A stretch of DNA of 64,000 bases. Source: an uncultured bacterium. GTDB lineage: Bacteria; Schekmanbacteria; GWA2-38-11; J061. Under the pieces are notes generated by a model. That model made no database searches. It had not been told where the DNA came from and saw nothing but the letters and a program-made list of their open reading frames with translations. The translations under genes and the position numbers were made by a program. The stretch spans positions 5,217 through 69,216 of the forward strand of contig CAZJVM010000001.1 in assembly GCA_964549305.1 (NCBI GenBank), written 5' to 3'. Below, one piece after another: positions 2,869 through 63,976 of the stretch (positions are counted from its first letter, which is position 1; every line of letters begins with the position of its first letter).

Positions 2869-2874
2869 ATGTAC

Positions 2875-3744
2875 CTAATGAATTTGATTGATGTAATCTT
2901 CAATGAGACTGCGGTTTTCAGGAGATATTCTCGAGATGTTTATCCCGGTTGAGTATTTTATTACATCACCTTCGGGAACCTCTATGCATCTGCACACCTT
3001 TCCGTCAATGTAAATGACTTTGTCGTTAATCATGAGATTTACTCCAACGTGGTCATTGGGTTTCAACGGATAAATATGCCGAAGAAGAAGTCCGCTGAGA
3101 CTTATATCCGTTACTTCCGCTTTTTCCTTGTTTTCTTCCATATTTTCCTTGTTTAGACTGTTGCAGTAAGCAAAGGTATTTACGCTGTAACGGGGATAAC
3201 GTCTTTTTTCGAGATATGAGTGTGTCATGGAAATCAATTCCATAAACCTGTCGGGAGAATTGATGGAAAGAAAACCGTCGATGAATGCACTGTTTTTAAG
3301 AAGATTGTTCCAGTAAAGATTCAGTTTTTCTTTTTCAACATCATTCTTTCCGTCTTTTTGAAAAGCTTCCACCGAGTGAAATAACATTACACAGATAACT
3401 TTAATGCCCGCACTTCCCTCGATACCCAAATCAATCTTTTTCTTTAAACGACCAATGAAAAGAAGTGAGTTAGAAATGTAAAGAAAAGGGCAGTAATTAA
3501 TAGTAAAGGGAAAAACTCCGTTCTTCAGGAAGTCTGACGCGTCCCTGAGAAGCGATTCCTTCATCTTTCCCCATTGTTTGGAAAGAAGCGCGAATTCTCT
3601 TCTCGCTGCCTGAGAGTTGCATACTTTATCAGATGATGAAAGCTTGCCTGATATTTCGAGGAATAAGTCTTTTATATTGTCTGACTCAAGATCAAGGTCG
3701 ACAATATCGGGGAGATACTCTTTGAATTCCTCTTTTATAGCCAT
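2875..3744 (-). CDS. PilZ-domain (c-di-GMP binding) protein with an uncharacterised N-terminal domain
   Basis: The C-terminal region carries both PilZ signature motifs: RxxxR (EKRRYPRYSV) and D/NxSxxG (DISLSGLLL). The N-terminal ~190 aa have no motif I recognise. Confidence 0.55.
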   Translation of the reverse strand: MAIKEEFKEYLPDIVDLDLESDNIKDLFLEISGKLSSSDKVCNSQAARREFALLSKQWGKMKESLLRDASDFLKNGVFPFTINYCPFLYISNSLLFIGRLKKKIDLGIEGSAGIKVICVMLFHSVEAFQKDGKNDVEKEKLNLYWNNLLKNSAFIDGFLSINSPDRFMELISMTHSYLEKRRYPRYSVNTFAYCNSLNKENMEENKEKAEVTDISLSGLLLRHIYPLKPNDHVGVNLMINDKVIYIDGKVCRCIEVPEGDVIKYSTGINISRISPENRSLIEDYINQIH

Positions 3745-3925: not shown

Positions 3926-5110
3926 CTACGTTGATTGTTTGCTCATCTGTTTGAAGTATTTAAAACAGAAGGACGCATAGATTGAAAGGAGGGTGCGGAC
4001 TTTCCTGAAATAATCCTCAGCATGAGACTGCGACGGTTTGTCTTCGGAAAGAAGTTTGTTAATTTGCCTCAGAAGGGTGAGTGTGTCGAGGGAGGACGAT
4101 TTAAGTAGTGAGATGTCGCTGTCTGAAAGTTTTTCATCAAGTATCAATCCGTATTTTTTATCCATTTCAAAGAGTGATTCCGTAAAGGCGCGCACCTTTT
4201 CCGTTTCCCACGCTTTTTTGCCTATTTGCCAGTATATCTGCCTGTTTTCGATTCCTATGGAAAGCAGTCTCATCTCCCTGATATTTTTCCTGAATTCGTA
4301 ATAATCCTTATTACCGATTCTTCCCGAACTCCTTTTTGATTTTTTGCCATTGTAATCAACTTTGGAAGAAATTCTCCTGCCGAATAAGTATTCAAGGAAT
4401 AATTCGTTTGCCGCGGGATAATCGGGATGCTCCATATGGGTGCTGAAAAAAAATATCATTCCTCTGTTTAAATTTCTTTTTCCCGCAAGTATCGCTCCGT
4501 TGCAGGTTTCTTCAGCGAGTTTCTCATTTACCAAAAACATTGTTTTTCCCGTAAAACCGTTGAACAGAGCGAGAGGAGTTATGGATTTGTCGTCTTTAAT
4601 CAGCGGTCCTCCGTAAATAGGCGAAAGCAATTTATTATCTTCCATATTTGTTCCGCCTGAAAGTATTTCCATATTTATTTCCCCGCGCACCGGATGAAAA
4701 ATATAACTGCACCCGTAAGAAGTGCTGTATTTGTATTCCATTGCTTTTGCCTTGGGAAGAGATGAGGAGAGGTTGTTGATTTTTCCAGATGTAAAATTAA
4801 AGTGATGAAGAGGTTTTTTTGATGACCTGAGGACGAGGTATGCTCCCGCGCATATTCCCGCGTAAATTCCGCCTTTTGAAATAAAGTCACTGATGGCGCG
4901 TGCTCCCTCTTCTCCCAACGATTCCGCAACGGCAAAACTGTCGCCGCCTGAAACTATGAGAATATCCGAAGCATCGAGAATGCCATTTCCGATATCTTTG
5001 GAAGATACGAAACTGACTGAGAAAATATTATACTTTTCAAAAAGTTTAATCAGCCAGATAAAAGAGTGTGACGCTCCTTCATCGGTATATATTGAAATTC
5101 TTTTTTCCAT
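3926..5110 (-). CDS. Hypothetical protein with N-terminal class-I glutamine-amidotransferase-like / BPL_N-like fold
   Basis: The N-terminus ILIVSGGDSFAVAESLGEEGARAISDFISKGGIYAGICAGAYL resembles GATase1-like or BPL_N-type domains. I do not recognise the remainder. Confidence 0.35.
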   Translation of the reverse strand: MEKRISIYTDEGASHSFIWLIKLFEKYNIFSVSFVSSKDIGNGILDASDILIVSGGDSFAVAESLGEEGARAISDFISKGGIYAGICAGAYLVLRSSKKPLHHFNFTSGKINNLSSSLPKAKAMEYKYSTSYGCSYIFHPVRGEINMEILSGGTNMEDNKLLSPIYGGPLIKDDKSITPLALFNGFTGKTMFLVNEKLAEETCNGAILAGKRNLNRGMIFFFSTHMEHPDYPAANELFLEYLFGRRISSKVDYNGKKSKRSSGRIGNKDYYEFRKNIREMRLLSIGIENRQIYWQIGKKAWETEKVRAFTESLFEMDKKYGLILDEKLSDSDISLLKSSSLDTLTLLRQINKLLSEDKPSQSHAEDYFRKVRTLLSIYASFCFKYFKQMSKQST

Positions 5111-7980: not shown

Positions 7981-10900
7981 ATGGATAAGATATTTTCAAA
8001 AAAAGTTAAGAGAATCAGAAATATCTTCAATGCAGAGATAGGGGATAATAATGAAATATCAGGATTAACCGGTTCATCCTCAGCATTTCTGCTTTCGCAA
8101 TTTCTAAACCGTGACAGTCAGACCTTTTTTATCGCATCGACTCCCGAGAAGGCCAAAATTCTTTATGGGAACCTGGTTTTTTTCAGGCAAAATTTCAGTA
8201 ATCAAAAAGATTCAGACGAAAGCGAAAATATTTATTACCTTCCTCCGAGAGACACTGCTTTGTATGATGAGCTCTCTCCCGACCATGAAATAACTTCTCA
8301 AAGAATATATTGTCTTCTTAAAATGATGAGTTCTCCCGGGATATTCATAACTGTTCCGGAATGCCTGACGACCTATTTGATGCCTAAAGAATTTCTCGAA
8401 AACAAGCGCAAAGACATAGATTCGGGAGATATGATTGACCGCGAGGAATTCGCCCGTTATCTCTTTGAGTCAGGATATGTGCGCAGTGAATTTGTGGAAC
8501 AGAGAGGGGAATTTAGCGTCAGAGGAGGAATTATAGATTTTTTCCCCGGTTATTATGACCATCCGGTGCGAATAGAACTTTCAGGTGATGAGGTCGTTTC
8601 CATAAGGGAATTTGACCCTTTTTCCCAACGGTCTGTCAAAAAGCTTTTAAGTGCCTCGGTATTTCCCGTGAGAGAAGTAGCGTATGGTGATGACAGAGAA
8701 TCCCTGCTTGAAAAATATTCGGACCGATTTGGCGACCTGACAAAACATCCGAAAGCGAAAAGAATCAGAGAAAAAATCGAGGAGGGGGAATATTTTCCCG
8801 GTATCGAAAACTATCTTCCTCTCTTTTATTCTGAAAAGAGCTCATTGTTCGACTATATGCAGAAGGATGCTCTTATCGTAACAGATGAGAAAGACTCCCT
8901 TTTGGAAAAAATATACGAGGCATACAATGATTATGAAAATATCCGGAAAGAATCCGGCATAGGCGACGCGCCCACATTACCTGTGGAATCTCTTTGTCTT
9001 GACAGTGAAGGGGTAAAGAAACAACTCTCCCGGTTCAGGCAGGCAAATATTTCCTTCCTCGCATCTTCAGATGCGAGTGTTTGTTTGGATATAAAGAGCA
9101 CTGATTATCTTCATATTGATATAAATCTTCGCTCGGACCGTTTTTTTTCCGTTGCCTCTGAATTAAAAAAGAAAAGGGATGAGGGATACCGTGTTTATAT
9201 TGCCGCGGCATCAAAACCGCGCGCGGAAAGACTGATTAAGATGTTTATGGATTATGAACTTTCCACGGGCATTTTTAAAAACAGGGAAGTTGACCTGTTA
9301 GAGGGAATAACGAAATCTCCCACTCCTCCCCGAATTGTAGTAGGCAGTCTTTCGGACGGATTTGTCATTGATGACCTGAAACTCATCTTTGTGACGGAAA
9401 AGGATATTTTTGGAAAAAAATCGGATGTCTACCGTAAAAAGGTGGTTACACGAATCAAGTATTCCTCGACTTTCGAAAGTCTTAAAAGGGGTGATTATGT
9501 TGTTCATACCGATTACGGAATAGGCAAGTTTTCCGGACTTGAAAGTATGGCGTCTGATGGCAGGCAAATTGATTTTCTTGTCGTCACATATCAGGAAGGA
9601 GAGAAGGTTTATGTGCCTTCCGACAGTTTTGGGCTTGTGCAGAGGTATATAGGCGCAAGCGGTTCGAAACCCGTCATTGACAAACTTGGAACGCAGAACT
9701 GGAAAAAAAGGAAGGAAAGGGCGAAAAAAGCTATTGCCACAATAGCGCAGGAACTTGTGGAACTTTATGCCTTGAGGCAAACATCCAGGGGGTATTCTTT
9801 TTCGACTGATGATAACTGGATAAGGGAATTCGAATCAAAATTTGAATATGAGGAAACCCCCCATCAGATTAGGGCAATAGAGGATATAAAAGCGGATATG
9901 GAGTCAGCAAGACCGATGGACAGACTCGTTTGCGGTGATGTGGGATACGGAAAAACAGAGGTGGCAATGCGCTCCGCTTTCAAGGCAATACTGGACACGA
10001 AACAGATTGCCGTACTTGTCCCTACCACTATTCTTGCTCATCAGCATTATAAAACTTTTATGGAAAGATTCTCCGGATTTCCCGTAAGAATCGAAATGCT
10101 TTCAAGGTTCATACCGAAGAGGAAGCAAAAAGAGATTATTGATGATGTAGAGTCCGGGAAAGTGGATATCGTAATAGGTACTCATTCGCTTGTCATTAAT
10201 AAAATGAGGTTCAAAGACCTCGGGCTTCTTGTCATTGACGAAGAGCACCGTTTTGGCGTGAAACATAAGGAGAGACTTAAAAGAATTAAAAAGGATGTCG
10301 ATGTGCTTACGTTGACGGCGACGCCTATTCCGAGAACGCTTCAATTTTCAATGATGGGTATAAGAGATATGAGCGTAATAGAAACTCCTCCCGAAGAGAG
10401 ATTGCCCGTGAAGACATTTGTTTCAACCTTCAGTAAAAATATCATTAAAAAAGCTATACTTGCTGAAAAGGAAAGAGGGGGACAGATTTATTTTGTTCAC
10501 AACCGGGTGCAAAGTATTCCGGCAATTTACCAGTTTCTCGAAAAACTCATTCCGGAAGTGAAAATAGGGATTGCCCACGGACAGATGAAACCCTCGGAGC
10601 TTGAAGAGATAATGATACGCTTTGTAAACAAGGAATATGACCTTCTTCTTTCAACGACCATTATCGAGTCGGGCATAGATATTCCATCGGTAAATACGAT
10701 AATAATCAACAGGGCGGACAAGCTTGGATTGGCGCAGTTGTATCAGCTAAGAGGGAGGGTAGGCAGAAGCAGAGAACAATCATACGCATATATACTCGTT
10801 CCTGCGGATAAATCTCTCACGGAAGTGGCAAGGAAGCGGCTTTCCGTTATAGAAGAATTGTCCGAACTCGGGTCAGGTTTTAAAGTGTCAATGCATGACC

Positions 10901-17224: not shown

Positions 17225-17914
17225 ATGAGCGAACAAGATAAAAAAAAGGACATCCTTTTAAACATTCATCATACCTTTCTTTTGGGAAAAATCACAGGAG
17301 ATTTATTCCACGAAATCAATAATATGGTGGGGGCGTCAATTGGTTTTGCGCAACTTGCAAAAATGAGTATGGGCGAAGATGATGTGAATAAACTCATCGA
17401 TGTTGTTTTAAACTCCACGGAAAAAATCAAGGAAATAAGCAAATCCGCGCAGACCTACCTCAGTTATTCAAACAATAACGGGTCGCTTGTGGATATTTCA
17501 GATGTACTCTGCCACTGCGTTACATTGTCAAGAAAAAGCCTGATAAAACGGGGAATTAAAATATCTGATTGTGACAAAAAACTCATAGCTTTTCAAACCG
17601 ATGTAAGGACCTTGAAGCATGCCATTTTAAGTTTTATTTCCTTCATTACGGAGAATAACGAAATCGGCGGCACTCTTGATTTGAAAGCGGAAAAAATTAA
17701 TGAAACCCAGGTTAAGATTGAATTTTTTAAAGATGATTTATGCGTTGAAAAAATTAATGAAATTATACGCGATTTTGACAACCTGGATTTTATGGAAAAT
17801 TTGGAAAATGACTGTTATATGGCATTGTATTTGATTCAAAAAGTATTGGGCGCTTCCACGGAAATTTCAAAGTCAACCTTTTCATTTATCATTGACGAAA
17901 TCGTTTCCCAATAG
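17225..17914 (+). CDS. Degenerate histidine-kinase-like protein (HisKA-like H-box, ATP-binding boxes eroded); hypothetical regulator
   Basis: H-box-like segment (FHEINNMVGASIGFAQLA) and a partial N-box-like stretch (LKHAILSFISFITENN). No DxGxG or GxGxG G-boxes. It sits between fliA and flgM, 6 nt after the fliA stop. Confidence 0.45.
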   Translation: MSEQDKKKDILLNIHHTFLLGKITGDLFHEINNMVGASIGFAQLAKMSMGEDDVNKLIDVVLNSTEKIKEISKSAQTYLSYSNNNGSLVDISDVLCHCVTLSRKSLIKRGIKISDCDKKLIAFQTDVRTLKHAILSFISFITENNEIGGTLDLKAEKINETQVKIEFFKDDLCVEKINEIIRDFDNLDFMENLENDCYMALYLIQKVLGASTEISKSTFSFIIDEIVSQ

Positions 17915-21277: not shown

Positions 21278-21718
21278 TTGGTTGAAATTTCTAAGGAAGA
21301 AGAAGAAAAGATTCGTCAAAAGATCAGAGCTGAGCTTGAAGAGGAGGAAAAAGAACGCCTCGAAAGACTGAAACATTTAAACTATTTGAATGAAAAGGAA
21401 GATCAGGAAGAAGATAAAGTTGATGAAACGAAACTTTTGGAATTAAAGAAAATTGAAATAATAGAAAATGAGAAAGTCGCGTTCTATAAAGAAAAAGGTT
21501 ATATTCCCGTAAAGACAAGATCAGGAAAAACCAAATGGATATCCAAAGAGGAGTATAACGAAAAGAAACATAAAATCCGCGTAAAGCGAAGGCGCAACGG
21601 CAAGGATTTAAATCCTGTGGAAAAACCCGGCCAAAAGAACCTCAAATCGATTTTTATCATTATTCTTATATTTGTTCTTTTTTCAATATTTATATCTCTT
21701 GTGTCTTCAATATTTTAA
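21278..21718 (+). CDS. Hypothetical tail-anchored protein (highly charged coiled-coil region + C-terminal TM helix)
   Basis: An E/K-rich heptad-like region is followed by SIFIIILIFVLFSIFISLVSSIF as the final ~23 residues. Confidence 0.4.
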   Translation: MVEISKEEEEKIRQKIRAELEEEEKERLERLKHLNYLNEKEDQEEDKVDETKLLELKKIEIIENEKVAFYKEKGYIPVKTRSGKTKWISKEEYNEKKHKIRVKRRRNGKDLNPVEKPGQKNLKSIFIIILIFVLFSIFISLVSSIF

Positions 21719-43376: not shown

Positions 43377-44183
43377 TTAATCGTTCAGACCGGTAATCTT
43401 TTCTTCAATATCTGTCAACGCCCTTGAAAGGTTGTTGAGCGTTCTTCTCGCGTCCAGTATCTTGTCTTCAAGGTCTGCAATTGACTTTGTAATATATTTG
43501 TTGTTGCTGTTTCCATTGCCGTTACCGTTTGCGGGAATGACTTTTGTAGATTTGTTTGCAGTCGTCTCATAGGCTCGACTTTTGTTTACAATCGGTTTTT
43601 TCGACAATTGAACCTGTTCGATTGTTTTTTTGGAGATACATTTCAAGGTTTCAAATACGCCTTCTCCCCTGATTGCCGAAGACGCGAATGAATCAAGTCC
43701 CATAGGGTTTATAATCGCATTCAGCTCATCGATTGACGAAATTTCCTCGAGGTCTCTCTTGTTGTATTGAAAAACTATGGGGATGCTGTCTATGCTCAGT
43801 CCGCTTTCCTGTAAATTGATTTTCAGGTCTTCAAAACTTTCAAGGTTTGCCTCAACCTGATCCTTCTGAGAGTCTGCGACAAATACAACGGCATCAACGC
43901 CTTTAAGGACAAGCTTTCTCGTAGAAGTCAACTGTACCTGACCGGGAGTTGTGTAAAGTTGAATTTTTATGTTCATCCCTCTGATTTTTCCAAGATTCAT
44001 CGGCAGCAAATCAAAGAAAAGGGTGCGGTCGGTTTCAGTGCGCATCGATAAGAGTTTTCCTCTCGTCTCGGGGTCGCTTTTGTTGTAAATAAATTCGAGA
44101 TTGGTGGTTTTTCCGCCCCTCGCGGGACCGTAGTACACGATTTTTATTATTGCTTCATCTAAAGCAACATTGAATATAGCCAT
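43377..44183 (-). CDS. mglA: MglA-like Ras-family small GTPase with ~70-aa C-terminal low-complexity/coiled-coil extension
   Basis: N-terminal 195 aa align closely with Myxococcus MglA: KIVYYGPARGGKTTNLEFIYNK, TETDRTLFFDLLP, LYTTPGQV, LKGVDAVVFVADSQ, QYNKRDL. The extension contains NGNGNGNSNN and a predicted coiled coil. No mglB gene is adjacent. Confidence 0.8.
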   Translation of the reverse strand: MAIFNVALDEAIIKIVYYGPARGGKTTNLEFIYNKSDPETRGKLLSMRTETDRTLFFDLLPMNLGKIRGMNIKIQLYTTPGQVQLTSTRKLVLKGVDAVVFVADSQKDQVEANLESFEDLKINLQESGLSIDSIPIVFQYNKRDLEEISSIDELNAIINPMGLDSFASSAIRGEGVFETLKCISKKTIEQVQLSKKPIVNKSRAYETTANKSTKVIPANGNGNGNSNNKYITKSIADLEDKILDARRTLNNLSRALTDIEEKITGLND

Positions 44184-56978: not shown

Positions 56979-57341
56979 AAAGAATGAAGTTTATGGCAAC
57001 AGAGTATAATGACTGAAAGTGCAAGTTGTCAATAATCATAAAAATAAAAACCGGGCAAACAATTTGTAGCTTATAAAAGCATCAGAGGGTGTCAGGAAGA
57101 AAGCATATTCTATATCAATCATTTGTTGCTCACAGCGACGATAAATGGTTTGTAAATACAGCAGGTTAGCTATCATTGCTATGTCCTTTAAATGATTGTT
57201 TGCTATGCTATCTAATTGATTTATCAATAAATAAATTGTTTTTTCGCGGTAAAAAAAATATTTTATTGGATATGAGATTAAAGGTTTTTAAGGAAAGTGG
57301 CGACAATATATGGTATAAATGCTGCTAATGGGGGAGGTGGC

Positions 57342-57788
57342 ATGAAAAAAATATCGCTTAAAAAATCTGAAGACGCGTTTACACTTGTAGAAATTCTTGT
57401 TGCCATAGTAATCCTTTCTGTAGGACTTCTCTCAATAGCAAGTTTGGTTACAACTGTTATCAGGGGTAACGCAAAGAGCAGGCGAATGACTACGGCAATA
57501 ACTCTTGCGCAAACGAAAATAGAAGAGTTGAAAAATCTGGATTATGACGATAGCAAACTCGAAGATTCAAATACGGGCAACAATTCAAGCCTTACAAGCA
57601 CATCATCCACTGACCACAGCGAAGCGGATATAGACGCGGAAGGGGGAACAGGGGGAATTTATACGAGAATATGGAATGTTGCCGATGACACTCCTTCAAC
57701 GAATATGAAAACTATTACGGTTATCATAAAGTGGGAAGAAAAGGGCAAGGAAAGAAAGACTGCGTTTACAACTATAATATCGGAATGA
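57342..57788 (+). CDS. pilV: Type IV pilus minor pilin, PilV-like (prepilin-type N-terminal domain)
   Basis: MKKISLKKSEDA|FTLVEILVAIVILSVGLLSIASL: class III signal with Glu at +5, PilV-like (compare Pseudomonas PilV ...GFSMIEVLVALLVLAIGVLGLASL). A strong GGGGGAGG Shine-Dalgarno lies upstream. Ala rather than Gly at -1 is atypical. Confidence 0.6.
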   Translation: MKKISLKKSEDAFTLVEILVAIVILSVGLLSIASLVTTVIRGNAKSRRMTTAITLAQTKIEELKNLDYDDSKLEDSNTGNNSSLTSTSSTDHSEADIDAEGGTGGIYTRIWNVADDTPSTNMKTITVIIKWEEKGKERKTAFTTIISE

Positions 57789-57797
57789 GGATGAAAA

Positions 57798-58703
57798 GTG
57801 CGCGTGAAAAATAACAGGAATGGATTTACGCTTATAGAGTTGATGGTGTCGATACTTCTCGCATCTATACTTATGGTTACATTTTATACTCTTCTTACCA
57901 GTCAGCAGAGAACATACAACAGTCAGGATTTGATTGTTGAAATGCAGCAAAATGTGAGGACGGCAATGGATACTTTGACGAGGGAATTCAGGTCAATCGG
58001 ATACGGAGTGCCTACTGCCGACACCCCTTCGGAAATTGCCGTTATAAGCAGCGCGACGGAAAACACCATAACCTTTCTCGTTGACCTTGATAATGTGAAG
58101 GCGACACTTACTGCCGACTACACGGCAGGAAATACTACTCTTTCCGTTGACACGGTGTCGGAGACATCTTCCGACAGTTATTATGGCAATTTTTCCGCAG
58201 GTGATACAATATATATAACTGACGGAAGCAAGTGGGAAGCCACTGACGTGTCATCTACTTCCCAGGGGAGTTTGGGTATCGGGGCTTTAACCAATGATTT
58301 TTCCCAGGGGTCGGTGCTTCACGTAATCAACACAATTACGTATGCCCAGAATCCATCCGACCACAAACATTCGACTGATGCGCCAACCATTAAATTGACG
58401 CGGTCTGTTGACGGAAGCACGGCACAACCGGTAGTCGATGACATTGATTATCTTGAATTCAAATACTATGATGATTCGGACAGTCAGGTCGGTTCAGCGA
58501 CTCCATACAAGAGTGTAAGTTTATCTTCCGGTGATGTAGGCGACGTAAGGAAAATAAAAGTTCTTTTTATCGCGCGAACATCGAGAGAAGATCCAAGCTA
58601 CTCGAGTTCCGGGGTCTATAACTGCGGCGACAAATACAGCGACCAATATCACAGATTAACACTGGAATCGGAAATAAAATTAAGAAATGCAGGATTGGAA
58701 TGA
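57798..58703 (+). CDS. pilW: Type IV pilus minor pilin, PilW-like
   Basis: MRVKNNRNG|FTLIELMVSILLASILMV is a canonical prepilin leader and methylation motif. PilW-like length (301 aa) and position after pilV. GTG start. Confidence 0.65.
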   Translation: MRVKNNRNGFTLIELMVSILLASILMVTFYTLLTSQQRTYNSQDLIVEMQQNVRTAMDTLTREFRSIGYGVPTADTPSEIAVISSATENTITFLVDLDNVKATLTADYTAGNTTLSVDTVSETSSDSYYGNFSAGDTIYITDGSKWEATDVSSTSQGSLGIGALTNDFSQGSVLHVINTITYAQNPSDHKHSTDAPTIKLTRSVDGSTAQPVVDDIDYLEFKYYDDSDSQVGSATPYKSVSLSSGDVGDVRKIKVLFIARTSREDPSYSSSGVYNCGDKYSDQYHRLTLESEIKLRNAGLE

Positions 58704-58704
58704 T

Positions 58705-59766
58705 ATGAAAAATAACAAAATGTTAAGCAATGAGTCGGGATTTGTCCTTGCACTTGCAATGTTTCTTCTTGCTATTCTCACTGTGATCGGTCTCGGCGCG
58801 ATTTTGATTACATCGACAGAGCTTAAGATATCGGGGAATCTCAGAACTGCTACCGATGCCCTGTATGTGGCAGAGGGAGGTATGGAAATTACTGAAGGAA
58901 AATTGAAGGCAAACGCAGTGAGCAATTTTGCAGGAACAAGCGGGACAACAAGCAATACGCAGATTTATGTCGTAGGAAAATCACCTAAAAACACCATTAA
59001 AAATCCTTTAAACTGGGTTGACACAAGCTGGTATATAGATTCGGATATGACCACGCCCCTGTCCGAGGGCAATGCGGAAACCGTGACTGCTCTTTATAAC
59101 AAATATACTATTGGTTCCGGGGAAGCCAATATTACACTGCCAAGACCTCAGTGGTTGTGGGTAAATCCCACGATTGTGGCGTTCAGAAACGTCAGGTCCA
59201 CATTCTCGGGAACAAATGCCAAAAAAGTGGAAGCGGATATTGAAATAAGATTTGAAAATAATCTCCTTTCCTTTCAGGTGTTCAAAGACCCTTCTGACGG
59301 TGTATCCGATGTTGACAATATTTCCAACAACAATGTTATAATAGGAGGTACAGGTTATGATTTTGGAATCGATCCTGCATTAAGCAAGATTACGGGAATT
59401 TGCACGAACGATAACAGTACGAAAGCTATTATAATTTATAGGGATGGGGACAACAATTTAGCGACTTCAGACTGGACAATAGTCGGAGAACCGGAGATTA
59501 ACACGACTAACAGTACATTTTGCCTCAGCAATGCGAGAGGTTACAGATATACAGCTTTGGGTGGTGCCGGGTCAAAAGAACCGGTAGCGGTTTTAAGCGC
59601 AAGCGAATATATTCCCGATACTACGGGCGCGCCTGTTTTGTCAATCAGTAACGGGGAAATTTACAAGGTTGAACTTGTCGATATATCTATGCTTTCACGA
59701 AGTGCCGGAAATCCGGCGGGTTCATCGGCAGGAAGCTGGGTGTCGAATACTTATAATCAATGGTAA
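58705..59766 (+). CDS. pilX: Type IV pilus minor pilin, PilX-like (PilX_N domain)
   Basis: ESGFVLALAMFLLAILTVIGLGAILITSTELKISGN matches the PilX N-terminal domain consensus (QRGxALxVALxxLLxLTLLGxxAxxxxxLxExMAGN). The start was moved to the ATG after the pilW stop. Confidence 0.6.
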   Translation: MKNNKMLSNESGFVLALAMFLLAILTVIGLGAILITSTELKISGNLRTATDALYVAEGGMEITEGKLKANAVSNFAGTSGTTSNTQIYVVGKSPKNTIKNPLNWVDTSWYIDSDMTTPLSEGNAETVTALYNKYTIGSGEANITLPRPQWLWVNPTIVAFRNVRSTFSGTNAKKVEADIEIRFENNLLSFQVFKDPSDGVSDVDNISNNNVIIGGTGYDFGIDPALSKITGICTNDNSTKAIIIYRDGDNNLATSDWTIVGEPEINTTNSTFCLSNARGYRYTALGGAGSKEPVAVLSASEYIPDTTGAPVLSISNGEIYKVELVDISMLSRSAGNPAGSSAGSWVSNTYNQW

Positions 59767-59790
59767 ACAAAAATATTAAAGGAGAATAAA

Positions 59791-59988
59791 ATGTTTAAAA
59801 ATCTGATTTGGGTTTTAATGACTTTTCTGGCATTAGCGGTTGTAATAACCTTTTCAACAGTGACAACGCGTGCCGATTCTGATACAAATTCAGCGAGTAA
59901 TATGAATGCTCCGGTAAACGGCGCGCAGGGGACAGGCACCAATGCCGAGCCGAACTCGACAATAAAAAACTGGCACGAAGTAAATTAA
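59791..59988 (+). CDS. Small secreted peptide precursor, paralog A (signal peptide, N/S/T/G-rich core, conserved C-terminal STIKNWHEVN)
   Basis: 65 aa. AAAGGAG Shine-Dalgarno 6 nt upstream. Sec-type signal peptide (MFKNLIWVLMTFLALAVVITFSTVTTRA). The mature part is ~37 aa. Confidence 0.6.
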   Translation: MFKNLIWVLMTFLALAVVITFSTVTTRADSDTNSASNMNAPVNGAQGTGTNAEPNSTIKNWHEVN

Positions 59989-60031
59989 TGATGTATTTGT
60001 ATAAATAAGATATATAAGAACGGAGGTTAAA

Positions 60032-60214
60032 ATGGCAAAAATAGTTAAAATGGTTTTGATATTACTCGTGTCAGGATTGATGAGCGCAACATTTACATTT
60101 GCAGTTACCACAAATTCAGACAGCAACTCAAACGCGAATGTTAATGGAGGAGGCGGACAGACTCAGCCATTTACGCCTTCTACTACAATAAAGAACTGGC
60201 ACGAAGTCAAATAA
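60032..60214 (+). CDS. Small secreted peptide precursor, paralog B (conserved C-terminal TTIKNWHEVK)
   Basis: 60 aa. GGAGG Shine-Dalgarno 5 nt upstream. Signal peptide (MAKIVKMVLILLVSGLMSATFTFAVTT). It shares with paralog A the pattern TF(S/T)xAVTTx(A/S)DSxxN...(S/T)TIKNWHEV(N/K). Confidence 0.6.
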   Translation: MAKIVKMVLILLVSGLMSATFTFAVTTNSDSNSNANVNGGGGQTQPFTPSTTIKNWHEVK

Positions 60215-60317
60215 TTCAAATATTCCTGCATACATATAAGTAAATTTTACGTTGCGGACTGTCACTATAGTTGATTATCCCAACCGTTCACTTATTGTTC
60301 AGGCAGAGAGTCTAATA

Positions 60318-61238
60318 TTGAAGAAATTCCTTTTTCTTTTATTTCTTGTCATAGTCACGGCATTTTCAGGGTGTCACCGCATAAGCGATAATGAGCTTAG
60401 TGACGTGGAGTCCGCAATAGAGTCAAAAGATTACAATCGTGCTTTGACAACTCTTTCACAACTCGCGGAAAAATATAAGGGAGATGCAATTGTCCATTAT
60501 CTTTCGGGATACTGCTTTTTAAAAAAAGAAGACAACGAAGCGGCACTCAAAGCATTCAAAAGGACTTTTGATATAAGAAAAAATTACTCCGCAATGGTAG
60601 GTGATGTTGATGTGGCGAATTTTCTCGCCGGAAACAGTTTGTCGGCGGAAAACCCTTTCTTCAAGGGAGCGATGAGAGAACTCGATACGATTATAAGCAA
60701 AAACAGCGGGGGCGAAACGGAAGAAAGAATTCGCTATCACAAGGCATCGCTTCTTCTTTTAAAAGACAAATATGATAAAGCAATCGATGAACTTGAAAAG
60801 ATAATTGAAAATAAAGTAGTGTCTCCTTATGATGCAAAAGCATATTTGAAAATTGGAGAAATCACCGCTCAATATTTACAAAATGAAGATAAGGGACTTA
60901 GTATTATCAGCGCGCTTATTGACAAATATCCCAATGACAGGGAAACTTTGGCAGAGTCAATGATTTGGATTGCAGAATATAAGATTAAACGCGCGAATAT
61001 GCTTAAAAAGAGGATCGAATCCCTCGAAGATTTTATCGAGTCATGGAAAGGGATAAAAGGGTTTCAGGAGGATATCAAAGAGGCAGTTGTGCAGATAGGG
61101 TCCGATAGTAAAAGCAGAAACAAATGTATTGCTGAAGCAAAGGAATATATTGATAAAATCAACAGGGAATATGCGGGAAGCAATTTTGCCGAAAGGACAA
61201 AAATGCTTTTAAGTGGCCTAAATGCAGTTAACCGGTAA
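60318..61238 (+). CDS. TPR-repeat lipoprotein
   Basis: TTG start, then LKKFLFLLFLVIVTAFSGC, a lipobox with Cys. TPR-like helical repeats fill the rest of the protein. Confidence 0.5.
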   Translation: MKKFLFLLFLVIVTAFSGCHRISDNELSDVESAIESKDYNRALTTLSQLAEKYKGDAIVHYLSGYCFLKKEDNEAALKAFKRTFDIRKNYSAMVGDVDVANFLAGNSLSAENPFFKGAMRELDTIISKNSGGETEERIRYHKASLLLLKDKYDKAIDELEKIIENKVVSPYDAKAYLKIGEITAQYLQNEDKGLSIISALIDKYPNDRETLAESMIWIAEYKIKRANMLKKRIESLEDFIESWKGIKGFQEDIKEAVVQIGSDSKSRNKCIAEAKEYIDKINREYAGSNFAERTKMLLSGLNAVNR

Positions 61239-62739
61239 AGGGTTCACTGTGAAAGATGCAAATCTGAAAACAAAAATCACAAAATACCTCCTTGTGGCAA
61301 TGACACTTCTTTTTCTTTTCTTTCTCCTGTTCAACATTCAGTATTCATATGAGGGGATAGTAGGTTACGACGGTTATTACCACATTAAAATAGCAAAAAA
61401 TATGGGAGAGAAAGGAGTTCTATCTCCCGATGCGTCGCTGATGTATCTTCCGGGAGGTGAGCAATTTGTTGACCATCACTACCTCTATCACATACTGCTT
61501 ATACCATTCACCTTTTCCAATCTCATTGACGGTGCCAAGAATTCGGCTATATTTTTTGATATGCTTCTGCTGATGGTTTTATCGTATATTTTGATAAAGC
61601 TTGATGTTAAAAATCCATATCTCTGGATTCTTGTACTCTTCTCTTTGTCTGAAACGTTTATCTTCAGGTTGTCTCTTCCGCGCGCAACTATACCTTCGCT
61701 AATAATCCTCATTTTAGCCTGGTATTTTATGATAAAGGAAAAATATATTCCTCTGGCAGGATTATCCTTACTTTTCCCGAGTTTCTACGGAGGATATACG
61801 GCGATTTTTATACCTCTCTCTGCTGTCATATGTTCTGTATATATAAGGAATAAACGATTTAATTACAAAGTGGTTATTGCTGTTATATCAGGTGTTACAT
61901 TAGGTAATATAATTAATCCTTTTTTTCCCGACAACCTGAAATTTATCTATCTTCAGACTACTTCTGCGGGACTTTTCAGAGTGGCAAGAGGTGGTTCGGA
62001 GTGGATGTCATTTGCGCCGGAAGAATTTATAAGGACGCAGTTTGCTTTTATCTTTCTTTTTTTGGTTACGCTTTATATTGCGGCAATTGACGACAAAAAG
62101 ATGAATAAGGAGGCATTGTCCCTTTTCTTTATCTCCCTTCCTTTGATTGCAATCAGTTTTTTCTGGCGAAGATTTATAGAATTGTCGGTGCCCTTTTCAT
62201 TGCTCTTTTCGGCAACGGTTTTCAGAGATTGCACTTTGGATAATATTACGGGATTTAGTAAGGGGGGTAAAAAAATATCGTCTGCTCTCGTGATATTCCT
62301 CACGGTCTTTTTCAGCGCGGGGAGTTATTATACGGCAAAATCGGCAACCGAGGAGATTAAATCGGATTTTCGTTCTCCCGGAAGGTACAGTCAGGGAGCA
62401 AAATGGATTTACGAAAATGCTCCGGGAATACCTGTGTATCTTACCGATTGGGATGACTATCCGGAACTCTATTTTTATAATTCCTTTAATAGGTATCTTA
62501 TAGGTCTTGACCCCGCGTTTCTCTATATTTATGATAAAGAAATGTATAAAATATGGATAGAAATTAATGCCGGAAAATATAAGGGCGATTTAAAGAAGGC
62601 GTTTACTGAAGTATTTAAAACCCCGCTAATATTTACTGACAATACTCACGGTGATTTTGTAAGATATAGTTCCGGATATGATTGGATTAAATTGCGATAC
62701 AGCGATTCCTATTGTAAAATATACAGCATTATTCCCTGA
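61222..62739 (+). CDS. Polytopic membrane protein with GT-C-like architecture (~11-12 TM helices plus ~130-aa C-terminal extracytoplasmic domain); putative glycosyltransferase
   Basis: The first loop after TM1 carries an acidic/aromatic motif (EGIVGYDGYYH). Many TM helices follow. The C-terminal soluble domain begins LTDWDDYPELYFY, reminiscent of the WWDYG motif position in STT3/PglB-type transferases. This was judged by eye only. Confidence 0.4.
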   Translation: MQLTGKGFTVKDANLKTKITKYLLVAMTLLFLFFLLFNIQYSYEGIVGYDGYYHIKIAKNMGEKGVLSPDASLMYLPGGEQFVDHHYLYHILLIPFTFSNLIDGAKNSAIFFDMLLLMVLSYILIKLDVKNPYLWILVLFSLSETFIFRLSLPRATIPSLIILILAWYFMIKEKYIPLAGLSLLFPSFYGGYTAIFIPLSAVICSVYIRNKRFNYKVVIAVISGVTLGNIINPFFPDNLKFIYLQTTSAGLFRVARGGSEWMSFAPEEFIRTQFAFIFLFLVTLYIAAIDDKKMNKEALSLFFISLPLIAISFFWRRFIELSVPFSLLFSATVFRDCTLDNITGFSKGGKKISSALVIFLTVFFSAGSYYTAKSATEEIKSDFRSPGRYSQGAKWIYENAPGIPVYLTDWDDYPELYFYNSFNRYLIGLDPAFLYIYDKEMYKIWIEINAGKYKGDLKKAFTEVFKTPLIFTDNTHGDFVRYSSGYDWIKLRYSDSYCKIYSIIP

Positions 62740-62763: not shown

Positions 62764-63504
62764 ATGAGAAAGTGTCTTCTTTTAATTCTTGTGTTTGTAT
62801 TTATAAGCACTCTTCCCGCATTTGCCATTTATAAATGGACCGATTCAAATGGTGTCGTGCATTTTACGGATTATCCTCCCAAAAACAGCGACAAAGAATA
62901 CGAAGACGTGGATTTTAACAAAAACCTTTCTGATATGAACGATTCCTTCGGAGACGGACTCATAGGCAAAGGATGGATTCGTTTTAATATTGACAACTCC
63001 GATATTCTCGATGAATCAGGGGATTCGCTAACGATTAACGCTCCCGGGGACAGCGACATATGGTATGACAGGTTTGATGCTCCGGTTCTTTTCAAAAAAA
63101 TCAAGAAGGCAGACAAGAATTTTACGGTGGAAGTTAAGCTTCATTTTGAGACAAACGGTTCAGACAAGGGAGGGGTTGTCATCTGGACTGATAAAAGCGG
63201 CAAGGGAGATGTGGTACTTATCTGTAAATCAAAGGATGAGGATATCAATTTCAGAAGAATAATCGGTTCCGATTCGCAGAAGGGGACCGAACCTACCTAC
63301 GACAAGGAAAACGTGATATTCAGGTTAAGCAGGGAAGAGGATAGAATCAAAGGGTCATACAGCGAGGACGGAGGCGACTGGACTGACCTTGGCGAAGTCG
63401 ACTTCCCGATGGAAGGTCCTCTCAATATAGGTATTTTCGGTTGTTCGTGGAAATCCAATCCAGCGAAGATAATATTCGATTACTTTTCAGTGAGTGAGCA
63501 ATAG
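62764..63504 (+). CDS. Secreted DUF4124-domain protein with C-terminal concanavalin/LamG-like beta-sandwich region
   Basis: Signal peptide (MRKCLLLILVFVFISTLPAFA), then YKWTDSNGVVHFTDYPP, the DUF4124 signature. The C-terminal ~170 aa are beta-rich. Confidence 0.5.
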   Translation: MRKCLLLILVFVFISTLPAFAIYKWTDSNGVVHFTDYPPKNSDKEYEDVDFNKNLSDMNDSFGDGLIGKGWIRFNIDNSDILDESGDSLTINAPGDSDIWYDRFDAPVLFKKIKKADKNFTVEVKLHFETNGSDKGGVVIWTDKSGKGDVVLICKSKDEDINFRRIIGSDSQKGTEPTYDKENVIFRLSREEDRIKGSYSEDGGDWTDLGEVDFPMEGPLNIGIFGCSWKSNPAKIIFDYFSVSEQ

Positions 63505-63511
63505 AAAAGAA

Positions 63512-63976
63512 TCATTGCTCGTTTTGAACCTTTTTCGCAATTACAGCAAAAAATGGTTTTTGACTCTCATTACTTTCATACATACCTTCCGCTATATGAT
63601 ATCCTTTTCCGAGGACAACTGTTGTTTTAATATACTTCTTTTTCTTCGATAAACTTTTTGAAATTATTCTGCCGTCAACGGAAAGAGTGAAATTCCCCCT
63701 GGAAAAAATATAGAGGCGATAAGCGCCTTTTTCAGTTGTACGAATAATCGAATTGAACGTTGCCTGAGAAAAATCACCGATGCTTGCAATTAGCGGGAAT
63801 ATATTATTTCCAGTTTTCTCTTTTTCCGCGAAGGGGTTAAAAGATATTACAGTATTCTTCCAAATATCTTTTTGCTTACCGAAGAGGATAAAATCATTTT
63901 CCGTTGATTTGTCCAGACTTTTATAAATAGACAGAAGAGGGACACCGTTATGATTATTTGAAAAAACCGGTATCAT
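63512..63976 (-). CDS. Hypothetical protein (N-terminus may extend beyond the window end)
   Basis: 154-aa ORF from the first Met. The reading frame may continue upstream past position 64000. No motifs I recognise. Confidence 0.35.
   Translation of the reverse strand: MIPVFSNNHNGVPLLSIYKSLDKSTENDFILFGKQKDIWKNTVISFNPFAEKEKTGNNIFPLIASIGDFSQATFNSIIRTTEKGAYRLYIFSRGNFTLSVDGRIISKSLSKKKKYIKTTVVLGKGYHIAEGMYESNESQKPFFAVIAKKVQNEQ

What the first reader, a model, noticed from the sequence alone, without database searches (positions are those of the whole stretch)
59791..60214. Tandem paralogous small signal-peptide peptides with an invariant C-terminal tail ...(S/T)TIKNWHEV(N/K)
Two adjacent genes each encode a small precursor (65 and 60 aa) made of a Sec signal peptide, a 35-40 aa N/S/T/G-rich core and an almost identical terminal nonapeptide (STIKNWHEVN and TTIKNWHEVK). 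Both have their own strong Shine-Dalgarno sequence. The signal-peptidase region is also conserved (TFSTVTTRADSDTNS against TFTFAVTTNSDSNSN). Duplicated, rapidly diverging cores framed by conserved leader and tail segments are typical of ribosomal peptide substrates, pheromones, bacteriocin-like peptides or sorting-tag substrates. I know of no described family with a WHEV C-terminus. They sit immediately after a pilV-pilW-pilX minor-pilin operon and before a TPR lipoprotein and a GT-C-like membrane protein. This suggests a dedicated secretion, modification or display module attached to the type IV pilus tip machinery.
Basis: seen in the sequence. Interest (0 to 1): 0.8.

Follow-up and report, generated by a model that had tools for sequence, protein, structure and literature searches.

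The report
Stand-alone pilus-tip strand peptides
Two tiny secreted peptides encoded right after the pilus-tip genes carry, as their conserved tail, the motif that related tip pilins have at their own C-terminus, so they most likely supply the last beta-strand that completes the tip pilin, as the large adhesin PilY1 does in other bacteria.

Summary
pepA (59791..59988) and pepB (60032..60214) are real genes under purifying selection. They have orthologues in three or four Candidatus Schekmanbacteria-type lineages and divergent relatives in at least six Nitrospinota genomes.

They always lie in one cassette: pilV-pilW-pilX-like, then one or two peptides, a TPR lipoprotein, a ~500-aa membrane protein, and sometimes PMT_2 or DUF1349 genes.

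The tail is not an orphan motif. Its core, aromatic-[H/R/K/Q]-E-(V) within two residues of the C-terminus, matches the extreme C-terminus of full-length PilX-type tip pilins in other phyla (...GWREVVQ, ...SWQEVLQ, ...NWKEVY). The cassette's own PilX-like proteins lack it. No other frame in the data held ends this way.

Ellison et al. 2026 showed that the last ~10 residues of PilC/PilY1 (in trans) or of GspK-type pilins (in cis) complete the tip pilin's beta-sheet and license filament assembly. My best reading is that these peptides are minimal, Sec-exported trans donors of that strand. This is inferred, not modelled.

The "GT-C-like" neighbour has a high-confidence STT3/PglB/DPY19-like fold, so tip glycosylation is plausible. 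RiPP, pheromone and bacteriocin readings are not supported. I class this as a new variant of a known kind.

The parts
57297..57788 (+). pilV/GspI-like minor pilin. The likely true start is the ATG at 57342 (MKKISLKK..). The prepilin motif is ..DA|FTLVE.
   Evidence: PF07963 N_methyl at 7e-07 and TIGR02523 PilV at 7e-10, the latter below its cut-off. Orthologues are present in all cassette loci.
57798..58703 (+). pilW/GspJ-like minor pilin (G|FTLIE).
   Evidence: N_methyl at 2.8e-08 and PF16074 PilW at 1.9e-05, just under its cut-off. Conserved in all cassette loci.
58687..59766 (+). PilX/PilK/GspK-type tip pilin. It has no Glu at +5 (G|FVLALAM) and ends ...SWVSNTYNQW, so it lacks the W-x-E-V terminus found in full-length PilX-type pilins of other phyla. 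It is the proposed acceptor of the peptide strand.
   Evidence: PF14341 PilX_N at 6.9e-10. It is 34-77% identical to its counterparts in 10 lineages. C-termini are compared.
59509..59520 (+). Invariant N-x-[T/S]-F sequon in the PilX-like protein (N275-S-T-F278). It is a candidate N-glycosylation site.
   Evidence: The sequon occupies the same alignment column in 10 of 10 lineages. No sequon is conserved in pilV-like or pilW-like proteins.
59791..59988 (+). pepA, a 65-aa precursor. The signal peptide is 59791..59874 (28 aa, TRA|D). The mature peptide is 37 aa with an Asn/Ser/Thr/Gly-rich head. The tail TIKNWHEVN is 59959..59985.
   Evidence: Orthologues are P0002 and P0117. pN/pS is 0.21/0.77. 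No Pfam or NCBIfam family matches. The mature part is disordered when modelled alone.
60032..60214 (+). pepB, a 60-aa precursor. The signal peptide is 60032..60103 (24 aa, TFA|V). The mature peptide is 36 aa. The tail TIKNWHEVK is 60185..60211.
   Evidence: Orthologues are P0004, P0005 and P0118. dN/dS is about 0.16.
60252..61238 (+). TPR lipoprotein. The probable start is the TTG at 60318 and the lipobox Cys codon is 60372..60374. Its 3' end overlaps the next gene by 17 nt.
   Evidence: Several TPR Pfam families match. YbgF scores 9.6e-14 and BamD 3.9e-08, both below their cut-offs. A lipobox Cys is present in all 11 homologues. The gene is conserved in every cassette.
61222..62739 (+). 505-aa polytopic membrane protein with a GT-C fold, closest to the peptide-acting enzymes STT3/PglB/AglB and DPY19. 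Family-invariant motifs are D50-G-Y-Y-H, D84-H-H, R149, G-x-E260-W, R316-R-x-x-E320 and D409-W-D-D-[F/Y]-P.
   Evidence: No Pfam or NCBIfam hit. 111 homologues were found. The AF2 model has pLDDT 91.6. Foldseek gives STT3 at E 1.6e-9 with TM 0.70, DPY19 at 2e-7 and PglB at 7e-7. A weak hhalign match places D50 on PglB D56.
62764..63504 (+). Secreted DUF4124 + DUF1349 protein (concanavalin-A-like). It is also conserved downstream of the cassette in one Nitrospinota lineage.
   Evidence: PF07081 at 6.9e-14 and PF13511 at 1.6e-08. The same architecture follows the GT-C gene in L030/L031, and it is present in L003.

Best explanation
pepA and pepB are exported by Sec and cleaved by signal peptidase I. 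This yields 36-37-residue peptides that are disordered on their own.

I propose that their conserved C-terminal ~9 residues (T-I-K-N-W-H-E-V-x) insert as the final beta-strand of the beta-sheet of the PilX/PilK/GspK-type tip pilin encoded immediately upstream. That pilin lacks a terminal strand of its own. Completing the PilX fold in this way would allow the PilV-PilW pair to bind and the tip or initiation complex of a type IV filament to assemble.

On this reading the peptides do the job of the last ~10 residues of the large adhesins PilC/PilY1/MshQ, reduced to a linker and a strand. The Asn/Ser/Thr/Gly-rich head would protrude from the apex of the tip.

Two paralogues would give two alternative tips, as PilC1/PilC2 do in Neisseria.

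The co-inherited TPR lipoprotein and the translationally coupled STT3-like GT-C enzyme probably glycosylate the tip. Candidate sites are the invariant N-x-T/S-F sequon of PilX and/or the Asn-rich peptide heads.

Shown here: the genes are real, the cassette is conserved, the tail motif is shared with PilX-type C-termini, and the neighbour has a GT-C fold. Inferred: strand insertion, export and cleavage, and glycosylation.
For: 1. Position. The peptides occupy the slot directly after pilV-pilW-pilX in every cassette found: 4 Schekmanbacteria-type lineages and at least 6 Nitrospinota lineages. This is the slot held by pilY1/pilC/mshQ in other systems (PMC13533445).

2. Motif. Full-length PilX-type pilins of Nitrospirota, Thermodesulfobacteriota, Manganitrophus and metagenomes have no PilY1 gene and are followed directly by pilMNOPQ. 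They end ...INWKEVY...VGWREVVQ...ISWQEVLQ...IDWMEVFQ...IDWVELFQ...LDWREVFQ...AAWQEVIQ and ...AVWREVVS. Of 4439 stop-to-stop frames of at least 40 aa in the window plus 35 loci, only these 8 pilins and the Schekmanbacteria-type peptides end W-x-E-[VLI]-x(0-2).

3. Complementarity. The cassette's own PilX-like proteins share the PilX_N domain with those pilins (hhalign probability 97.5%) but end differently and lack the motif.

4. Published mechanism. The last ~10-12 residues of PilC/PilY1 complete the PilK/PilX sheet in trans. In GspK, ComGG, V. cholerae PilX and CpaL the extreme C-terminus does so in cis. The strand is necessary and partly sufficient for assembly.

5. Family anatomy. Members have a cleavable signal peptide, a flexible head, and a tail that always lies within 0-2 residues of the C-terminus. 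Some Nitrospinota members carry an extra ~45-aa Cys/His domain upstream of the same linker and tail, giving a cargo-plus-strand layout.

6. The mature peptide has no structure of its own (pLDDT below 50), as expected for a strand that folds on binding.

7. The cis-type loci L013-L016 carry no TPR or GT-C homologues. The tail motif is therefore tied to PilX and not to the TPR or GT-C proteins.

8. Both peptides are under purifying selection.
Against: - No complex could be modelled.
- The globular domains of cassette and cis-type PilX proteins are too divergent to align. I therefore could not show that the cassette PilX stops exactly one strand short.
- The shared motif is short, about 4-5 informative positions. 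In Nitrospinota it drifts to F-R-E-x-x, and in one case to L-K-E.
- I could not retrieve PilC/PilY1 C-terminal sequences to compare with the tail.
- No type IV pilus motor, secretin or major pilin gene lies in the window, so the filament type is unknown.
- The TPR and GT-C genes are always co-inherited with the peptides, so a role for them in handling the peptides cannot be excluded.
Confidence: 0.6

Rival explanations
1. The peptides are dedicated acceptor substrates of the STT3-like GT-C enzyme. The TPR lipoprotein binds the conserved C-terminal tail, as TPR domains bind EEVD-COOH or as TPR-containing glycosyltransferases recruit acceptors. It presents the Asn/Ser/Thr-rich head for periplasmic glycosylation. 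The product is a secreted or displayed glycopeptide.
For: - The TPR gene and the GT-C gene are translationally coupled and always adjacent to the peptides.
- The GT-C model is closest to peptide-glycosylating enzymes.
- The heads are Asn/Ser/Thr-rich and disordered.
- Glycan-assembly genes (GT2, a MurJ/Wzx-like flippase, a deacetylase, PMT_2) flank the cassette in Nitrospinota.
- A GT-C enzyme combined with TPR repeats that acts on pilins has a precedent in TfpW.
Against: - The same tail motif ends PilX-type pilins in loci that have no TPR or GT-C homologue. The tail's primary partner is therefore unlikely to be the TPR protein.
- N-x-S/T sequons are absent from pepB, the L019 peptide and one L010 peptide (read from the sequences).
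- GT-C homologues at 34% identity or less occur without peptides or pilins.
- This reading is compatible with the best explanation as an added step, but weak as the sole explanation.
Confidence: 0.15
2. The tail is a targeting or docking tag. The peptides are recognised by the TPR lipoprotein acting as a pilotin-like or BamD-like receptor, or they are cargo pushed out by a type II-secretion-like pseudopilus. They do not become part of the tip pilin fold.
For: - The TPR lipoprotein resembles BamD, YbgF and PilW(PilF)-type lipoproteins at sub-threshold scores.
- Pilotins bind short C-terminal segments (my own knowledge).
- Some family members carry a small N-terminal domain ahead of the linker and tail. 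This looks like cargo plus tag.
Against: - The tag would have to be the same motif that ends PilX-type pilins lacking any TPR neighbour.
- The peptides have no transmembrane or sorting-signal features.
- TIGR02521 (the PilW pilotin model) scores only 0.0027, far below its cut-off.
- No secretin gene lies in any cassette.
Confidence: 0.08
3. The peptides are RiPP precursors, pheromones or bacteriocin-like peptides. A conserved leader and tail frame a variable core.
For: They are small, duplicated genes with conserved ends. Independent duplications occurred in several lineages.
Against: - The N-terminus is an ordinary Sec signal with an A-x-A site, not a RiPP leader.
- No radical-SAM, YcaO, lanthipeptide, peptidase-ABC exporter, immunity or two-component gene is conserved in the cassette.
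- The core is conserved across phyla and is not hypervariable.
- The peptides are strictly linked to minor-pilin genes.
Confidence: 0.03
4. The ORFs are spurious, arising from a duplicated non-coding spacer.
For: They are very short and of low complexity. No expression data are available.
Against: - pN is far below pS, at the same level as the flanking genes, and there are synonymous changes in the tail.
- Orthologues keep the reading frame in two phyla.
- Both have strong Shine-Dalgarno sequences.
- No Rfam family and no stable RNA structure was found.
Confidence: 0.01

Closest known systems
C-terminal beta-strand of the PilC/PilY1 (and MshQ) tip adhesins, donated in trans to PilK/PilX (Ellison et al. 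2026, PMC13533445; Treuner-Lange et al. 2024, as cited in PMC13190605)
   Same: The gene lies directly after pilV-pilW-pilX. The product is a Sec-exported, non-pilin protein. The functional element is the last ~10 residues at the extreme C-terminus. The partner pilin lacks Glu5 and lacks its own terminal motif. Paralogous donors occur, as with PilC1/PilC2.
   Different: There is no beta-propeller (PF05567), no calcium site and no adhesin domain. The mature product is 23-37 residues (about 75-85 with the optional Cys/His domain) against 1000-3500. Strand insertion has not been modelled or tested here.
Terminal strand supplied in cis by GspK/XcpX, ComGG, V. cholerae PilX, CpaL, and by the PilX-type pilins of loci L014-L017, L023, L027 and L028
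   Same: The C-terminal motif is the same (hydrophobic-x-W-[R/K/Q/H/M]-E-[V/L]-x-x-COOH). It follows a Gly/Pro-rich linker in both, for example ..GSGGGGQPRIDWMEVFQ against ..NGGGGQTQPFTPSTTIKNWHEVK.
   Different: Here the strand is a separate gene with its own ribosome-binding site and signal peptide, so it must find PilX in the periplasm. Homology of the globular PilX domains could not be shown beyond PilX_N.
STT3/PglB/AglB oligosaccharyltransferases and the DPY19 C-mannosyltransferase (for the 505-aa neighbour)
   Same: The neighbour has the GT-C fold, with TM 0.65-0.72 to STT3 and DPY19. It has an acidic residue in the first external loop (D50-G-Y-Y, compare PglB N-D56-G-Y). It has a flexible loop with an invariant Glu. 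A strand-helix element D-W-D-D-[F/Y]-P resembles W-W-D-Y-G-Y-P.
   Different: It is about 200 residues shorter and has only a small periplasmic domain. It has no Pfam STT3 hit and no significant sequence match to PDB. The WWDYG motif is only half kept. Acceptor and donor are unknown.
Pilin glycosylation systems TfpW/TfpX and TfpO(PilO)/PglL
   Same: A membrane glycosyltransferase is encoded next to pilin genes. TfpW combines GT-C and TPR elements.
   Different: Those enzymes sit next to the major pilin gene and O-glycosylate it. Here the enzyme is STT3-like and sits in a minor-pilin cassette. The only invariant candidate site is an N-x-T/S sequon in PilX.

Membership tests
PilC/PilY1 tip adhesins | C-terminal seven-bladed beta-propeller domain (Pfam PF05567) | tested here: not met
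   There are no Pfam or NCBIfam hits for pepA, pepB or the Nitrospinota forms. The mature peptides are 23-37 aa.
PilC/PilY1 tip adhesins | Gene immediately downstream of the pilV-pilW-pilX (pilIJK) minor-pilin genes | tested here: met
   This holds in all cassette loci.
PilC/PilY1 tip adhesins | Extreme C-terminal ~10 residues add a beta-strand to the PilK/PilX sheet | not testable with these tools
Indirect support comes from the tail matching the C-terminal motif of PilX-type pilins that have no PilY1.
PilC/PilY1 tip adhesins | Sec signal peptide, not a prepilin leader | tested here: met
   A positively charged N-region, a hydrophobic core and an A-x-A site are present in all 15 peptides, and none has a G|FTLIE motif. 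No SignalP run was possible.
PilX/PilK/GspK tip pilins (the neighbour at 58687..59766) | PilX_N domain, prepilin-type N-terminus without Glu at +5 | tested here: met
   PF14341 scores 6.9e-10. The sequence G|FVLALAM.. has no Glu5.
STT3/PglB/AglB oligosaccharyltransferases (the neighbour at 61222..62739) | GT-C fold with an STT3-type transmembrane core | tested here: met
   The AF2 model has pLDDT 91.6. The best PDB matches are STT3 subunits at E 1.6e-9 with TM 0.70.
STT3/PglB/AglB oligosaccharyltransferases (the neighbour at 61222..62739) | WWDYG motif and significant sequence membership (Pfam PF02516) | tested here: not met
   There is no Pfam hit and no PDB sequence hit. hhalign against PglB gives E 0.08. 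The motif is D-W-D-D-[F/Y]-P, which is a partial resemblance only.
RiPP precursor peptides | Non-Sec leader plus a conserved maturase and exporter in the cluster | tested here: not met
   The peptides have a Sec signal. The cassette genes are pilins, a TPR protein and GT-C enzymes only.
C-terminal sorting signals (PEP-CTERM, LPXTG, GlyGly-CTERM and similar) | Signature motif followed by a transmembrane helix and a basic tail, with a cognate sortase | tested here: not met
   The tail is hydrophilic and 9 residues long, and no sortase-type gene is present.
TPR pilotins PilF/PilW/Tgl (the neighbour at 60252..61238) | Membership of TIGR02521 | tested here: not met
   TIGR02521 scores E 0.0027 with 17 bits against a cut-off of 154. 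The lipobox and TPR repeats are present.

The most novel reading that the evidence does not exclude
A type IV filament whose tip is licensed by a free, 23-37-residue secreted peptide instead of a PilY1-class adhesin or a cis strand. Two interchangeable peptides would give alternative tips. A dedicated mini-oligosaccharyltransferase (STT3-like GT-C plus TPR lipoprotein) would N-glycosylate the PilX sequon and/or the Asn-rich peptide heads, so that the filament presents a glycan at its apex. This would be a natural version of the engineered PilK-C-beta experiment. It would also be the first bacterial STT3-like enzyme dedicated to a pilus tip.
Probability: 0.25. Interest if true: 0.85.

Novelty: new variant of a known kind. 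Interest (0 to 1): 0.65.

Why it matters
Beta-strand addition to the apical minor pilin was proposed in 2026 as the universal licensing step for type IV filaments. So far it is known only in two forms: the end of very large adhesins, or the end of the pilin itself.

A naturally occurring donor that is little more than the strand would be the minimal form of that mechanism. It would be an easy handle for biochemistry, since synthetic peptides could complete PilX in vitro. It would also show that strand donors can be missed entirely by annotation, because these genes have no family assignment.

The cassette also brings to light an unannotated STT3-like GT-C family of more than 100 members across many phyla. 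One clade of that family is hard-wired to pilus-tip genes.

Tried and rejected
- TPR-binds-the-tail was my working hypothesis until. I downgraded it because the same terminus occurs on PilX-type pilins in loci without TPR or GT-C homologues.
- I built a TPR + linker + peptide fusion alignment from 14 paired sequences for AlphaFold.
- N-glycosylation of the peptides as the conserved function: N-x-S/T is missing in pepB, the L019 peptide and one L010 peptide, so I rejected it as a defining feature.
- C-mannosylation of the tail Trp, prompted by the DPY19 resemblance: the aromatic residue varies (W, F, Y, L), so I rejected it.
- hhalign of cassette PilX against cis-type PilX, to show that one strand is missing: only the N-terminal 69 residues align. 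The result is inconclusive.
- PDB sequence searches with PilX and with the GT-C profile found nothing.
- E. coli GspK against PDB: the alignment stops before the C-terminus. The K-12 GspK terminus ..IYRRTLQLY shares only the aromatic+Arg feature.
- The exhaustive profile search with the five Schekmanbacteria-type peptides found only 4 proteins. The Nitrospinota relatives were reachable only through synteny.
- The terminator and promoter scan, RNA folding and Rfam gave nothing beyond chance.
- Base composition gives no sign of a foreign island.
- The afdb50 fold library was unavailable.
- No supplementary text was held for the Ellison paper, so PilC/PilY1 terminal sequences could not be compared.
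Full report
**Observation**

Each lies behind an AGGAG or GGAGG ribosome-binding site. Both start with a basic N-terminus, a hydrophobic core and an A-x-A-type cleavage site (TRA|D, TFA|V). This would leave mature peptides of 37 and 36 residues ending STIKNWHEVN and TTIKNWHEVK. The motif occurs nowhere else in the six frames of the window. No Pfam or NCBIfam model matches either peptide.

**Are they genes?**

Word-indexed and exhaustive protein searches found only a handful of relatives, all of the Candidatus Schekmanbacteria type. These are P0002 and P0005 (adjacent genes D6734_10545 and D6734_10540), P0004, P0117, P0118 and P0119.

Against the orthologous pair in L001, synonymous sites are saturated (pS 0.77 and 0.66) while pN is 0.21-0.22. 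The flanking pilV/W/X genes give pN 0.15-0.17 and the TPR gene gives 0.28. The tail codons themselves differ synonymously.

A-type and B-type peptides are each closer to their orthologues than to each other, so the duplication is old. In two Nitrospinota lineages the two copies are 76-85% identical, which indicates independent or homogenised duplications. Spurious ORFs or a duplicated spacer can be excluded.

**The cassette**

Contigs carrying the orthologues keep the order pilV, pilW, pilX-like, pepA, pepB, TPR protein, ~500-aa membrane protein. I followed the membrane protein and the PilX-like protein into other genomes. The same cassette appears in at least six Nitrospinota genomes and several metagenome contigs.

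In every case one or two small signal-peptide ORFs sit between the PilX-like gene and the TPR gene. Their mature parts are as short as 23 residues. They end ..KIKEFREKR..KIKEFREAR..KIKEFRETK..RMKDFREN..RMKDYREE..QMKHFREN..KVKQFREKK..KVKQLKEKK and ..KVKNWHE.

The family consensus has three elements:
- an Asn/Ser/Gly-rich head;
- an aromatic-x-x-Pro element;
- the tail [I/V/M]-K-x-[W/F/Y]-[H/R]-E followed by 0-2 residues and the stop codon.

Some Nitrospinota members carry an additional ~45-residue Cys/His-containing domain in front of the same linker and tail.

Homologues of the membrane protein at 34% identity or less (Acidobacteriota and others) have neither pilins nor peptides next to them. 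No terminator separates the window genes. The TPR and membrane-protein genes overlap.

**What the tail is**

The pattern scans also returned loci that matched only the PilX N-terminal motif. These come from Nitrospirota, Thermodesulfobacteriota, Candidatus Manganitrophus, a Pseudomonadota MAG and metagenomes.

There the PilX-position protein is long (417-623 aa). It is followed directly by pilM-N-O-P-Q without any PilY1 gene. It ends ...INWKEVY...VGWREVVQ...ISWQEVLQ...IDWMEVFQ...IDWVELFQ...LDWREVFQ...AAWQEVIQ or ...AVWREVVS, with one variant ...GDWYQVFA.

Across the 4439 stop-to-stop frames of at least 40 aa in the window and 35 loci, the only frames ending W-x-E-[V/L/I]-x(0-2) are these eight pilins and the Schekmanbacteria-type peptides. 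There are no background hits.

The cassette's own PilX-like proteins share the PilX_N domain with these pilins (hhalign probability 97.5%). They end differently, as ...SWVSNTYNQW or ...TSTSVTCP. Loci L013-L016 contain no homologue of the TPR protein or the membrane protein. The motif therefore goes with PilX and not with those neighbours.

**Link to published work**

Ellison et al. [quoted passage not shown] In GspK, ComGG, V. cholerae PilX and CpaL the pilin's own extreme C-terminus does the same in cis. The strand is necessary and partly sufficient for filament initiation.

The donor gene (pilC/pilY1/mshQ) follows pilIJK/pilVWX. An independent survey of myxobacterial PilY1 proteins reports the same predicted PilX-PilY1 strand complementation (PMC13190605). 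A literature search found no description of a stand-alone peptide donor.

**Best explanation**

Taken together, pepA and pepB are most simply read as minimal trans donors of the PilX terminal strand. They would be Sec-exported, disordered on their own (AF2 pLDDT below 50 for the mature part), and anchored in the tip complex by their last nine residues. The Asn/Ser/Thr-rich head would project from the apex.

The longer Nitrospinota forms look like small cargo plus linker plus strand. Two paralogues would give alternative tips.

I put this at about 0.6. What is shown is gene reality, synteny and motif identity. Strand insertion itself is inferred, because complex modelling was not possible and the globular PilX domains are too divergent to align.

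**The neighbours**

The 505-aa protein has no family assignment. It has 111 homologues across many phyla. It gives a confident model (pLDDT 91.6) whose best PDB matches are:
- STT3 subunits of eukaryotic oligosaccharyltransferase (E 1.6e-9, TM 0.70);
- the Trp C-mannosyltransferase DPY19;
- PglB and AglB;
- at a lower level, ALG12 and ArnT.

Family-invariant residues include D50-G-Y-Y-H, which is weakly aligned to PglB N-D56-G-Y. They also include an invariant Glu in a flexible loop, and D-W-D-D-[F/Y]-P in a strand-helix element reminiscent of WWDYG.

It is therefore a GT-C enzyme that resembles the peptide-acting branch. It fails sequence membership of STT3.

The TPR protein is a lipoprotein in all lineages. 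The PilX-like protein carries an N-x-[T/S]-F sequon in 10 of 10 lineages. In Nitrospinota the cassette is flanked by GT2, flippase-like, deacetylase and PMT_2 genes. A ConA-like DUF1349 protein follows in the window and in L030.

Glycosylation of the tip, on PilX and/or the peptide heads, is a reasonable extension. It is inference only, and canonical sequons are not conserved in the peptides.

**Rivals**

- Peptides as pure glycosylation acceptors recruited by the TPR protein: 0.15.
- A docking or secretion tag: 0.08.
- RiPP, pheromone or bacteriocin: 0.03.
- Artefact: 0.01.

Each is weakened chiefly by the occurrence of the same terminus on PilX-type pilins that lack the TPR and GT-C genes. 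The RiPP reading is further weakened by the ordinary Sec signal and the absence of any maturase or exporter.

**Context and limits**

The rest of the window is housekeeping: guaA, mfd, pheA, trpS, thrS-infC-pheST, pnp, purB/C/Q/L/F and others. It contains no pilus motor, secretin or major pilin, so the filament type is unknown. GC content is unremarkable. No RNA family or structure explains the region.

**Verdict**

This is a new variant of a known kind: a stand-alone strand donor for the type IV filament tip. It comes with an unannotated STT3-like enzyme family as a by-product of the analysis.

Noticed in passing
window 61222..62739 (and P0006-P0116): A ~500-aa membrane-protein family with no Pfam or NCBIfam model. 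It has 111 homologues in Nitrospinota, Acidobacteriota, Chloroflexota, Mariprofundus, Patescibacteria and others. Its confident fold is STT3/DPY19-like and it carries invariant D-G-Y-Y-H, G-x-E-W and D-W-D-D-F-P motifs. Only the clade at 35% identity or more is linked to pilin genes.
   Followed up: partly
window 59509..59520 (PilX-like residues 275-278): An N-x-[T/S]-F sequon is invariant in the PilX-like protein of all 10 lineages and is often preceded by a second overlapping sequon (INTTNSTF). No sequon is conserved in the pilV-like or pilW-like proteins.
   Followed up: partly
L006 3365..3706; L011 3541..3981 and 4353..4673; L012 9232..9908; L020 7068..7379: Long-form family members (about 100-113 aa) insert a Cys/His-containing module, K-V-[TD]-I-C-H-x-x-G-G...V-T-L-N-V...G-H-I-P-N-H-x-x-D-x-x-G-x-C, between the signal peptide and the Asn-rich linker and tail. 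It has no Pfam match and may bind metal.
   Followed up: no
window 62764..63504; L030 9540..10265: A secreted DUF4124 + DUF1349 (concanavalin-A-like) protein follows the GT-C gene in both the Schekmanbacteria-type window and a Nitrospinota lineage. It may be a glycan-binding accessory of the cassette.
   Followed up: no
L004 2045..3032: In a near-identical metagenome contig the TPR gene matches in two overlapping pieces in different frames, which indicates a frameshift or assembly error. pepB on L003 and L004 has a 2-residue deletion at the signal-peptide cleavage region (TFTFAVTTNSD becomes TFAVATSSN).
   Followed up: no
L017 6192..7958 and 7995..9725: Candidatus Manganitrophus has two tandem full-length PilX-type genes. 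Both end in the W-x-E-[V/L]-F-Q motif. This is a duplication of the cis form that parallels the peptide duplications.
   Followed up: no
window 58687..59988: pilX-like and pepA are in the same reading frame, separated by one TAA stop and 24 nt. This is not so in L001, so it is probably coincidence.
   Followed up: yes
window 43377..44183 (-): A 268-aa protein has a weak Arf/small-GTPase match (E 7.8e-07). It may be a bacterial Ras-like or MglA-like GTPase.
   Followed up: no
window 17225..17914, 21278..21718, 63512..63976 (-): These ORFs of 146-229 aa have no Pfam match at E <= 1e-05.
   Followed up: no
window 2875..3744 (-); L030 80..415 (-): PilZ-domain proteins occur in the window, far from the cassette, and next to the Nitrospinota cassette in L030. 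No link was established.
   Followed up: no
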